Positions 61,422-61,480 of a stretch of 64,000 bases of DNA are shown in pieces; the stretch's first letter is position 1, and each line of letters starts with the position of its first letter. Source of the DNA: Escherichia coli. GTDB taxonomy: Bacteria; Pseudomonadota; Gammaproteobacteria; Enterobacterales; Enterobacteriaceae. The DNA is taken from the NCBI RefSeq assembly GCF_045037415.1, contig NZ_CP173438.1. One strand, given 5' to 3'. The notes under the pieces are model-generated. The model was not told where the DNA came from and did not search any database. It saw only the letters and a program-made list of their open reading frames with translations. The position numbers were made by a program, and so were the translations under genes.

Positions 61422-61480
61422 TGCATTATTGCTGTTCCTGGCCTAATTTTTCGGCGAGGAACAGTTTACAAGGAGCAACA

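What the first reader, a model, noticed from the sequence alone, without database searches (positions are those of the whole stretch)
61422..61480. No yidI between yidJ and yidH
From the remembered K-12 order (yidH, yidI, yidJ) I expected a ~149-aa inner membrane ORF on the minus strand between yidJ and yidH. Here only 59 bp separate the yidJ stop from the yidH start, and no suitable minus-strand ORF exists nearby. The spacer contains an inverted repeat (gttcct…aggaac). I hold this with low confidence because it depends on recalled synteny.
Basis: inference. Interest (0 to 1): 0.3.

Follow-up and report, generated by a model that had tools for sequence, protein, structure and literature searches.

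The report
Common strain-level loss of yidI
This E. coli strain, which matches the ST131 lineage, really does lack the small membrane-protein gene yidI that K-12 carries between yidJ and yidH, but the same old deletion is found in about a quarter of sequenced E. coli genomes, so it is ordinary strain variation.

Summary
The yidJ stop codon is at 61419-61421 and the yidH ATG is at 61481, so the spacer is 59 bp (61422-61480). No YidI-like sequence occurs anywhere in the window (best tblastn E = 5.4).

In K-12 MG1655 the same interval is 603 bp and holds yidI on the opposite strand. Collinear blastn shows that 592 bp of K-12 is replaced here by 48 bp (61422-61469). That replacement is not detectably related to the K-12 sequence. 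It contains a stable stem-loop (61432-61464, -24.3 kcal/mol, z = -3.3).

Among 5,426 complete E. coli genomes:
- 3,717 carry yidI.
- 1,412 carry this same 59-bp spacer.
- About 300 have another allele. Two were inspected, and both have an IS200/IS605-associated larger deletion.

yidI sits at the same site in E. albertii, Citrobacter youngae, Klebsiella huaxiensis and Phytobacter. Its dN/dS is 0.06-0.20, and in the pairs that are not saturated its dS is close to yidH's. I therefore read it as an inherited gene that was deleted here. Seven other Enterobacteriaceae genomes lack it, each with a different short spacer.

The window matches ST131-labelled genomes and also has a frameshifted yidJ. This is a real but ordinary polymorphism of low interest.

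The parts
59927..61421 (+). yidJ (sulfatase-like), disrupted by a +1 C insertion at about 60258-60259. It reads as two overlapping ORFs, 59927-60289 and 60021-61421.
   Evidence: ORF list. Alignment with K-12 and TUM1886 shows the single extra C. PGAP annotates two CDSs in the identical strain SK1144.
61419..61421 (+). yidJ stop codon TGA, the left edge of homology with K-12.
   Evidence: blastn block K-12 L001 3912-8144 matches window 61421-57188. See also the alignment.
61422..61469 (.). 48-bp replacement sequence that stands where K-12 has 592 bp (yidI plus both of its intergenic regions). Its origin is unresolved.
   Evidence: Searches give the breakpoints. It has no significant similarity to the K-12 long spacer (273 of 1000 shuffles score as well). 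The family-wise test against five long alleles gives p = 0.07-0.30. It is single-copy in the window and essentially single-copy per genome.
61432..61464 (+). Stem-loop: an 8-bp stem and a 3-bp stem separated by a one-base mismatch (1x1 internal loop), with a 9-nt loop. It is followed by TTTAC, so there is no T-run.
   Evidence: Fold. It was not flagged as terminator-like. No Rfam match. The only variant seen among seven short alleles is an A-to-C change in the loop.
61470..61480 (+). Retained yidH ribosome-binding region (AAGGAGCAACA), the right edge of homology with K-12.
   Evidence: blastn block K-12 L001 789-3319 matches window 64000-61470. See also the alignment.
61481..61828 (+). yidH (115 aa, DUF202), intact.
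   Evidence: 99.1% identical to K-12 YidH. Pfam PF02656 at E = 2.8e-19.
61421..61423 (+). ATG overlapping the yidJ stop (TGATG) and in frame with yidH. It would give a 135-aa N-terminally extended ORF. Nothing shows that it is used.
   Evidence: ORF 61421-61828. PGAP uses the 61481 start in SK1144.

Best explanation
The window carries an old deletion allele of the yidJ-yidH interval. In the ancestor of E. coli, yidI (149 aa, an uncharacterised inner-membrane protein of family PF27700) lay between yidJ and yidH on the opposite strand. On one side it had a strong convergent hairpin, and on the other a 108-bp divergent intergenic region. One event removed 592 bp and left 48 bp of unrelated sequence. 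That event took out yidI, the hairpin and the whole region upstream of yidH except its Shine-Dalgarno sequence. As a result yidK-yidJ-yidH-yidG-yidF are now one co-directional string.

Shown by tool results: the breakpoints, the population frequencies, and the presence of yidI at this site in outgroups.

Inferred: (1) The event was an illegitimate deletion with filler DNA. (2) yidHGF in this allele must be transcribed by read-through from the yidK/yidJ side, because its former upstream region is gone and no promoter-like site is detected. (3) The stem-loop is an intercistronic RNA structure, acting as a stabiliser or weak attenuator rather than an efficient terminator, because no U-run follows it.

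The loss fits a gene cluster that is eroding in E. coli. yidF is a truncated maturase remnant, and yidJ is frameshifted in this lineage.
For: - Breakpoints: K-12 L001 3320-3911 (592 bp) against window 61422-61469 (48 bp).
- Frequencies among 5,426 complete genomes: yidI DNA in 3,717 and the 59-bp spacer in 1,412. The remaining ~300 have another allele. The two inspected have an IS200/IS605-linked deletion that keeps the first 19 nt of yidI.
- yidI lies between yidH and yidJ in E. albertii (L003), C. youngae (L004), K. huaxiensis (L006, L007) and Phytobacter massiliensis (L039). A yidI remnant lies next to yidH in E. albertii NBRC 107761 (L011) and in 'E. coli' SCPM-O-B-8794 (L018).
- yidI has dN/dS of 0.06-0.20. 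K-12 versus E. albertii gives dS 0.44 for yidI and 0.50 for yidH, consistent with vertical co-inheritance.
- The yidI-yidH intergenic sequence is recognisably conserved across genera.
- All seven short alleles examined share identical breakpoints and differ by one loop SNP, which indicates a single origin. Their flanks differ at dS of about 0.14-0.17 and show mosaic SNP patterns, so the allele is old.
- No promoter-like site occurs in 61200-61700.
- yidF aligns to only part of a 370-aa radical-SAM/SPASM protein.
Against: - Seven other Enterobacteriaceae genomes (Kluyvera, two Pluralibacter, C. werkmanii, two Pseudocitrobacter, Enterobacter sp. R1) have yidJ directly next to yidH with no yidI. 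Their short spacers differ from one another. The state in the deeper family ancestor is therefore ambiguous, and polarity rests on the Escherichia outgroups.
- E. fergusonii, E. marmotae and E. ruysiae were not examined.
- The origin of the 48 bp is unknown.
- The simple promoter scan also finds nothing in the K-12 intergenic region, so the absence of a hit says little about transcription.
- No expression data were available.
Confidence: 0.85

Rival explanations
1. The short allele is ancestral for E. coli, and yidI was inserted or re-acquired in the lineage leading to K-12, O157 and related strains.
For: Many Enterobacteriaceae genera have yidJ and yidH adjacent without yidI. The short allele occurs on divergent flanking backgrounds.
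Against: yidI and its flanking intergenic sequences are present and collinear in E. albertii and in three other genera. For K-12 versus E. albertii, yidI's dS (0.44) is close to yidH's (0.50). The short spacers of other genera are unrelated to the one in the window, so they are independent events and not a shared ancestral state.
Confidence: 0.08
2. The yidI-less allele was imported into E. coli by homologous recombination from another species that already lacked yidI.
For: The 48-bp filler has no detectable source in E. coli. The region is clearly recombinogenic: in one E. albertii sample the yidK-yidJ flank is about 96% identical to E. coli while the yidH-yidF flank is about 88%.
Against: The flanks next to the spacer are no more diverged from K-12 (96.5% over 501 bp) than the region as a whole (97.1-97.5%). 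None of the seven yidI-less outgroup spacers resembles the filler.
Confidence: 0.05
3. The missing gene is an assembly or sequencing artefact in this window.
For: None found.
Against: The identical junction is present in 1,412 independently assembled complete genomes.
Confidence: 0.01

Closest known systems
E. coli K-12 MG1655 yidH-yidI-yidJ interval (b3676-b3678)
   Same: The flanking genes yidK, yidJ, yidH, yidG, yidF and emrD are collinear and 97-98% identical. The yidH Shine-Dalgarno sequence and start codon are identical.
   Different: K-12 has 603 bp between yidJ and yidH. This includes yidI, a 13-bp-stem convergent hairpin (-27.5 kcal/mol) and a 108-bp divergent intergenic region. The window has 59 bp, of which 48 bp are unrelated.
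Annotated B2/ST131-type E. coli genomes (for example SK1144 NZ_AP018784.2 and O25b:H4-ST131 strain 4224)
   Same: SK1144 is identical over the junction, with yidH annotated 59 bp after the sulfatase gene and the same yidJ frameshift. Strain 4224 was matched only on the 41-nt frameshift probe.
   Different: Nothing differs from SK1144 in the stretches compared; the window looks like a member of this group.
IS200/IS605-associated deletion allele (for example F5505-C1 and MB06233)
   Same: This is another E. coli allele that lacks yidI at the same locus.
   Different: It is an independent and larger event. yidL through most of yidI is replaced by a tnpA pseudogene plus tnpB, and the first 19 nt of yidI and the K-12-type yidH upstream region are kept. 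The window has no IS sequence at the junction.
Intrinsic (Rho-independent) terminator
   Same: It is a GC-containing stem-loop immediately downstream of a stop codon.
   Different: No U-run follows it (TTTAC). The loop is 9 nt. The terminator scan did not call it.

Membership tests
YidI family (Pfam PF27700, Uncharacterised_IM_YidI) | A coding sequence homologous to YidI is present in the window. | tested here: not met
   tblastn of K-12 YidI against the window gives a best E of 5.4. There was no hit at E <= 1e-5.
K-12-type yidJ-yidI-yidH synteny | About 600 bp lies between the yidJ stop and the yidH start, with yidI on the opposite strand. | tested here: not met
   The window has 59 bp and K-12 has 603 bp.
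Short-spacer (yidI-less) E. coli allele | Same breakpoints and the same 59-bp sequence as other yidI-less E. coli genomes. | tested here: met
   1,412 genomes cover at least 80% of a 119-nt probe across the junction. Seven sequences aligned base by base differ by one loop SNP.
Intrinsic terminator | A GC-rich stem-loop. | tested here: met
   -24.3 kcal/mol, z = -3.3.
Intrinsic terminator | A run of T/U immediately 3' of the stem. | tested here: not met
   The sequence after the stem is TTTACAAGG. The scan did not report it.
REP/BIME or other dispersed intergenic repeat | Multiple copies per genome. | tested here: not met
   There is one copy in the 64-kb window at up to 3 mismatches. The median is 1 place per genome, with 5,249 places in 5,246 records.
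IS200/IS605 end or excision scar | Sequence shared with the IS ends seen at this locus in other strains. | tested here: not met
   I read the IS junction in L008 and saw nothing resembling the 48-bp filler; this was by eye, not a formal alignment. The hairpin pattern was found only in the short-allele loci among the 90 loci held at the time, which included L008 and L009.
Any Rfam RNA family | A covariance-model match. | tested here: not met
   No match at E <= 1 in 61300-61600.

The most novel reading that the evidence does not exclude
The most novel reading not excluded has two parts. First, the 48-bp replacement with its invariant stem-loop could be a selected cis-element rather than inert filler, one that couples or insulates expression of yidKJ and yidHGF after the loss of yidI. 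Second, presence or absence of yidI could be a long-lived polymorphism kept by selection, both within E. coli and across Enterobacteriaceae genera. The spacer differs at only 1 of 59 positions between haplotypes whose flanks differ at dS of about 0.15. However, after scaling by the intergenic-to-synonymous rate ratio seen in the long allele (my estimate of about 0.28, from roughly 14 differences counted by eye in the 108-bp spacers printed, against dS of about 0.47), about 2.5 differences are expected, so the deficit is not significant.
Probability: 0.08. Interest if true: 0.3.

Novelty: already known. Interest (0 to 1): 0.1.

Why it matters
It matters little. The result shows that yidI is an accessory gene, not a core E. 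coli gene. It is present in about 68% of complete genomes and has been lost independently at least twice within the species. It also shows that K-12 gene order cannot be assumed for B2/ST131 strains. The putative sulfatase cluster yidL-K-J-(I)-H-G-F appears to be decaying in E. coli, and in this lineage three lesions are visible: yidI deleted, yidJ frameshifted and yidF truncated. The practical lesson for a genome scan is that a missing K-12 gene is most often ordinary pangenome variation.

Tried and rejected
1. Is the 48-bp filler a diverged remnant of the K-12 long spacer? Local alignment was no better than shuffles (273 of 1000).
2. Is the filler an inverted remnant of the last 56 nt of yidI? 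The alignment starts at the same yidI position in K-12, C. youngae, K. huaxiensis and Phytobacter, and C. youngae alone gave p = 0.002-0.04. K-12 and E. albertii, the relevant ancestors, were not significant. The family-wise test gave p = 0.07-0.30. I rejected this as unsupported.
3. Is the filler an IS200/IS605 end left by the element seen in other strains? The IS allele keeps K-12-type sequence upstream of yidH and shares nothing with the filler.
4. Is it a dispersed repeat? It is single-copy.
5. Is it a known RNA family? No match.
6. Do promoter scans of the short and long alleles help? Neither gave hits, so they are uninformative.
7. Is there a shared haplotype block around the junction between the window and TUM1886? 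The SNP patterns are mosaic and no block is visible.
8. Literature searches for yidI mostly returned a personal name. The one relevant paper only lists YidI among strain-variable genes (PMC10304320).

Full report
**The observation**

The sequence and the ORF list show the sulfatase gene yidJ ending with TGA at 61419-61421. yidH (115 aa, DUF202; Pfam E = 2.8e-19) starts at ATG 61481, behind an AAGGAG Shine-Dalgarno sequence at 61470-61475.

No minus-strand ORF in the area resembles YidI. tblastn of K-12 YidI against all 64 kb gives only noise (best E = 5.4).

CTGTTCCT.GCC / GGC.AGGAACAG (61432-61464) folds at -24.3 kcal/mol, against -15.2 +/- 2.8 for dinucleotide shuffles (z = -3.3, 0 of 200 shuffles as good).

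**Comparison with K-12**

blastn of the K-12 stretch against the window gives two collinear blocks:
- L001 789-3319 matches window 64000-61470.
- L001 3912-8144 matches window 61421-57188.

Hence 592 bp of K-12 is replaced by 48 bp (61422-61469) in the window. The lost K-12 sequence comprises yidI, the 46-bp yidJ/yidI convergent spacer with a 13-bp-stem hairpin (-27.5 kcal/mol), and all of the 108-bp yidI/yidH divergent region except its last 11 bases. Homology ends exactly at the yidJ stop and resumes at the yidH ribosome-binding site.

**How common the allele is**

Among 5,426 complete E. coli genomes:
- yidI DNA is present in 3,717.
- A 119-nt probe spanning the 59-bp spacer is covered by at least 80% in 1,412.
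- The remaining ~300 match only the yidH side.

Two genomes of the last group, F5505-C1 and MB06233, have an IS200/IS605 element (tnpA pseudogene plus tnpB) in place of yidL through most of yidI. They retain the first 19 nt of yidI and the K-12-type sequence upstream of yidH. That is an independent deletion derived from the long allele. yidI has therefore been lost at least twice within E. coli and behaves as an accessory gene. One comparative paper lists YidI among strain-variable genes (PMC10304320).

**Which lineage the window belongs to**

The last 20 kb of the window is 100% identical to several human isolates, and 565 genomes are at least 99% identical.

yidJ carries a single extra C at about 60258-60259 relative to K-12 and TUM1886. 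A 41-nt probe centred on this insertion matches exactly 410 genomes. Among the 30 of these listed are strains labelled O25b:H4-ST131 and O25:H4. The window therefore matches ST131-labelled genomes, a lineage assigned to phylogroup B2 (my own knowledge, not tested). PGAP splits the gene into two CDSs in the identical strain SK1144.

**Polarity of the change**

YidI relatives (all carrying PF27700) occur in E. albertii, Citrobacter, Klebsiella huaxiensis, Leclercia, Enterobacter, Yokenella and Intestinirhabdus.

The gene lies between yidH and yidJ, on the opposite strand, in these genomes:
- E. albertii (L003)
- C. youngae (L004)
- K. huaxiensis (L006, L007)
- Phytobacter massiliensis (L039)

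yidI remnants also lie next to yidH in the E. albertii type strain (L011) and in 'E. coli' SCPM-O-B-8794 (L018).

The yidI/yidH intergenic sequence is recognisably conserved across these genera. yidI has dN/dS of 0.06-0.20. For K-12 versus E. albertii its dS (0.44) is close to that of yidH (0.50). This supports a real, vertically inherited gene. I conclude that the window allele is a deletion and that K-12 did not gain the gene.

One caveat applies. Seven other Enterobacteriaceae genomes have yidJ directly next to yidH, with spacers of 32-114 bp that are unrelated to each other and to the window's spacer, and some contain REP-like sequence. These are Kluyvera genomosp. 1, two Pluralibacter, C. 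werkmanii, two Pseudocitrobacter and Enterobacter sp. R1. The site is thus repeatedly remodelled, and the state in the family ancestor is open.

**Age and origin of the short allele**

Seven short alleles from different backgrounds have identical breakpoints and differ only by an A/C change in the hairpin loop, which indicates a single origin. Their flanks differ at dS of about 0.14-0.17.

Overall, TUM1886 (short allele) is closer to K-12 (long allele, 97.9-98.0%) than to the window (96.6%). SNP patterns around the junction are mosaic, with no shared haplotype block. The allele is therefore old and has been shuffled by recombination.

The single difference in 59 bp looks low against flanking dS. 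However, the long allele's intergenic sequence evolves at roughly 0.28 of dS. I derived that figure by counting about 14 differences by eye in the 108-bp spacers printed, against dS of about 0.47. It gives an expectation of about 2.5 differences, so there is no significant excess conservation.

**Source of the 48 bp**

The replacement sequence is single-copy in the window and essentially single-copy per genome. It is not significantly similar to the K-12 long spacer.

It weakly resembles the last 56 nt of yidI in inverted orientation. This is strongest against C. youngae (p = 0.002-0.04) but not significant against K-12 or E. albertii. The family-wise test gives p = 0.07-0.30, so I do not accept this origin.

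It matches no Rfam family and is unrelated to the IS junction in the third allele. Its origin remains unresolved. Filler DNA from an illegitimate deletion is the default reading.

**Consequences (inferred)**

The deletion removes the whole former upstream region of yidH but keeps its ribosome-binding site. No sigma-70-like site is detected in 61200-61700, although the same simple scan is also negative on the K-12 allele.

yidHGF in this allele is therefore most likely expressed by read-through from yidK/yidJ, across a stem-loop that has no U-run and was not called a terminator.

An ATG overlapping the yidJ stop (TGATG, 61421) is in frame with yidH and would give a 135-aa product. PGAP does not use it.

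The cluster looks degenerate in this lineage. yidI is deleted and yidJ is frameshifted. yidF (165 aa, no Pfam hit) aligns to only part of the C-terminal half of a 370-aa radical-SAM/SPASM protein in C. youngae, with an internal gap.

**Verdict**

What it describes is an ordinary and widespread presence/absence polymorphism that is already visible in more than 1,400 annotated public genomes. Interest is low.

Noticed in passing
window 60250-60265 (yidJ, 59927-61421): yidJ carries a +1 C insertion (GGCACCTGG where K-12 has GGCACTGG) that splits the sulfatase gene into two ORFs. The exact 41-nt context occurs in 410 of 5,426 complete genomes, including strains labelled O25b:H4-ST131.
   Followed up: yes
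window ~57090-57190 (yidL 3' end / yidE): Homology with K-12 ends at window 57188, about 33 bp before the K-12 yidL stop. In the identical strain SK1144, yidL (288 aa) is followed directly by yidE, so the glvG/glvB/glvC block that K-12 has after yidL is absent here. C. youngae has the same glv-less arrangement, while E. albertii and K. huaxiensis have glv genes.
   Followed up: partly
window 62177-62674 (yidF): YidF (165 aa, no Pfam hit) aligns to only part of residues 158-370 of a 370-aa radical-SAM/SPASM protein at the same position in C. youngae, with a large internal gap. I infer from its domains that the full-length protein is an anaerobic sulfatase-maturase-like enzyme. The E. coli gene looks like a truncated remnant.
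   Followed up: partly
L008 2196-3890 and L009 (F5505-C1, MB06233): A third allele is represented by two inspected genomes from the roughly 300 that match only the yidH side. A tnpA pseudogene plus a TnpB gene (IS200/IS605 family) replaces yidL through most of yidI. The IS end abuts the first 19 nt of yidI.
   Followed up: partly
L003 (E. albertii-type contig, Logan ERR14335061): The yidK-yidJ flank is about 96% identical to E. coli (dS 0.15-0.19), while yidI and the yidH-yidF flank are much more diverged overall (yidH-yidF about 88% identical; dS 0.44 for yidI, 0.50 for yidH, only 0.24 for yidG). This suggests an inter-species recombination breakpoint near the yidJ/yidI junction.
   Followed up: no
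window 61421-61483: An ATG overlapping the yidJ stop codon (TGATG) is in frame with yidH, giving a possible 135-aa N-terminally extended YidH. This arrangement resembles translational coupling and exists only in the short allele.
   Followed up: no
L002 7823-8068 compared with L010 6823-7601: SK1144 has only about 245 bp between ysdE and ivbL and no annotated tisB. TUM1886 and F5505-C1 have tisB there. This lies just beyond the window's end and may be another indel.
   Followed up: no
L001 3866-3911 (K-12): K-12 has a very stable 13-bp-stem hairpin (GATAATGCCCGC...GCGGGCATTATT, -27.5 kcal/mol, z = -5.1) between the convergent yidJ and yidI genes. It is probably a bidirectional terminator and is lost in the window allele.
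   Followed up: partly
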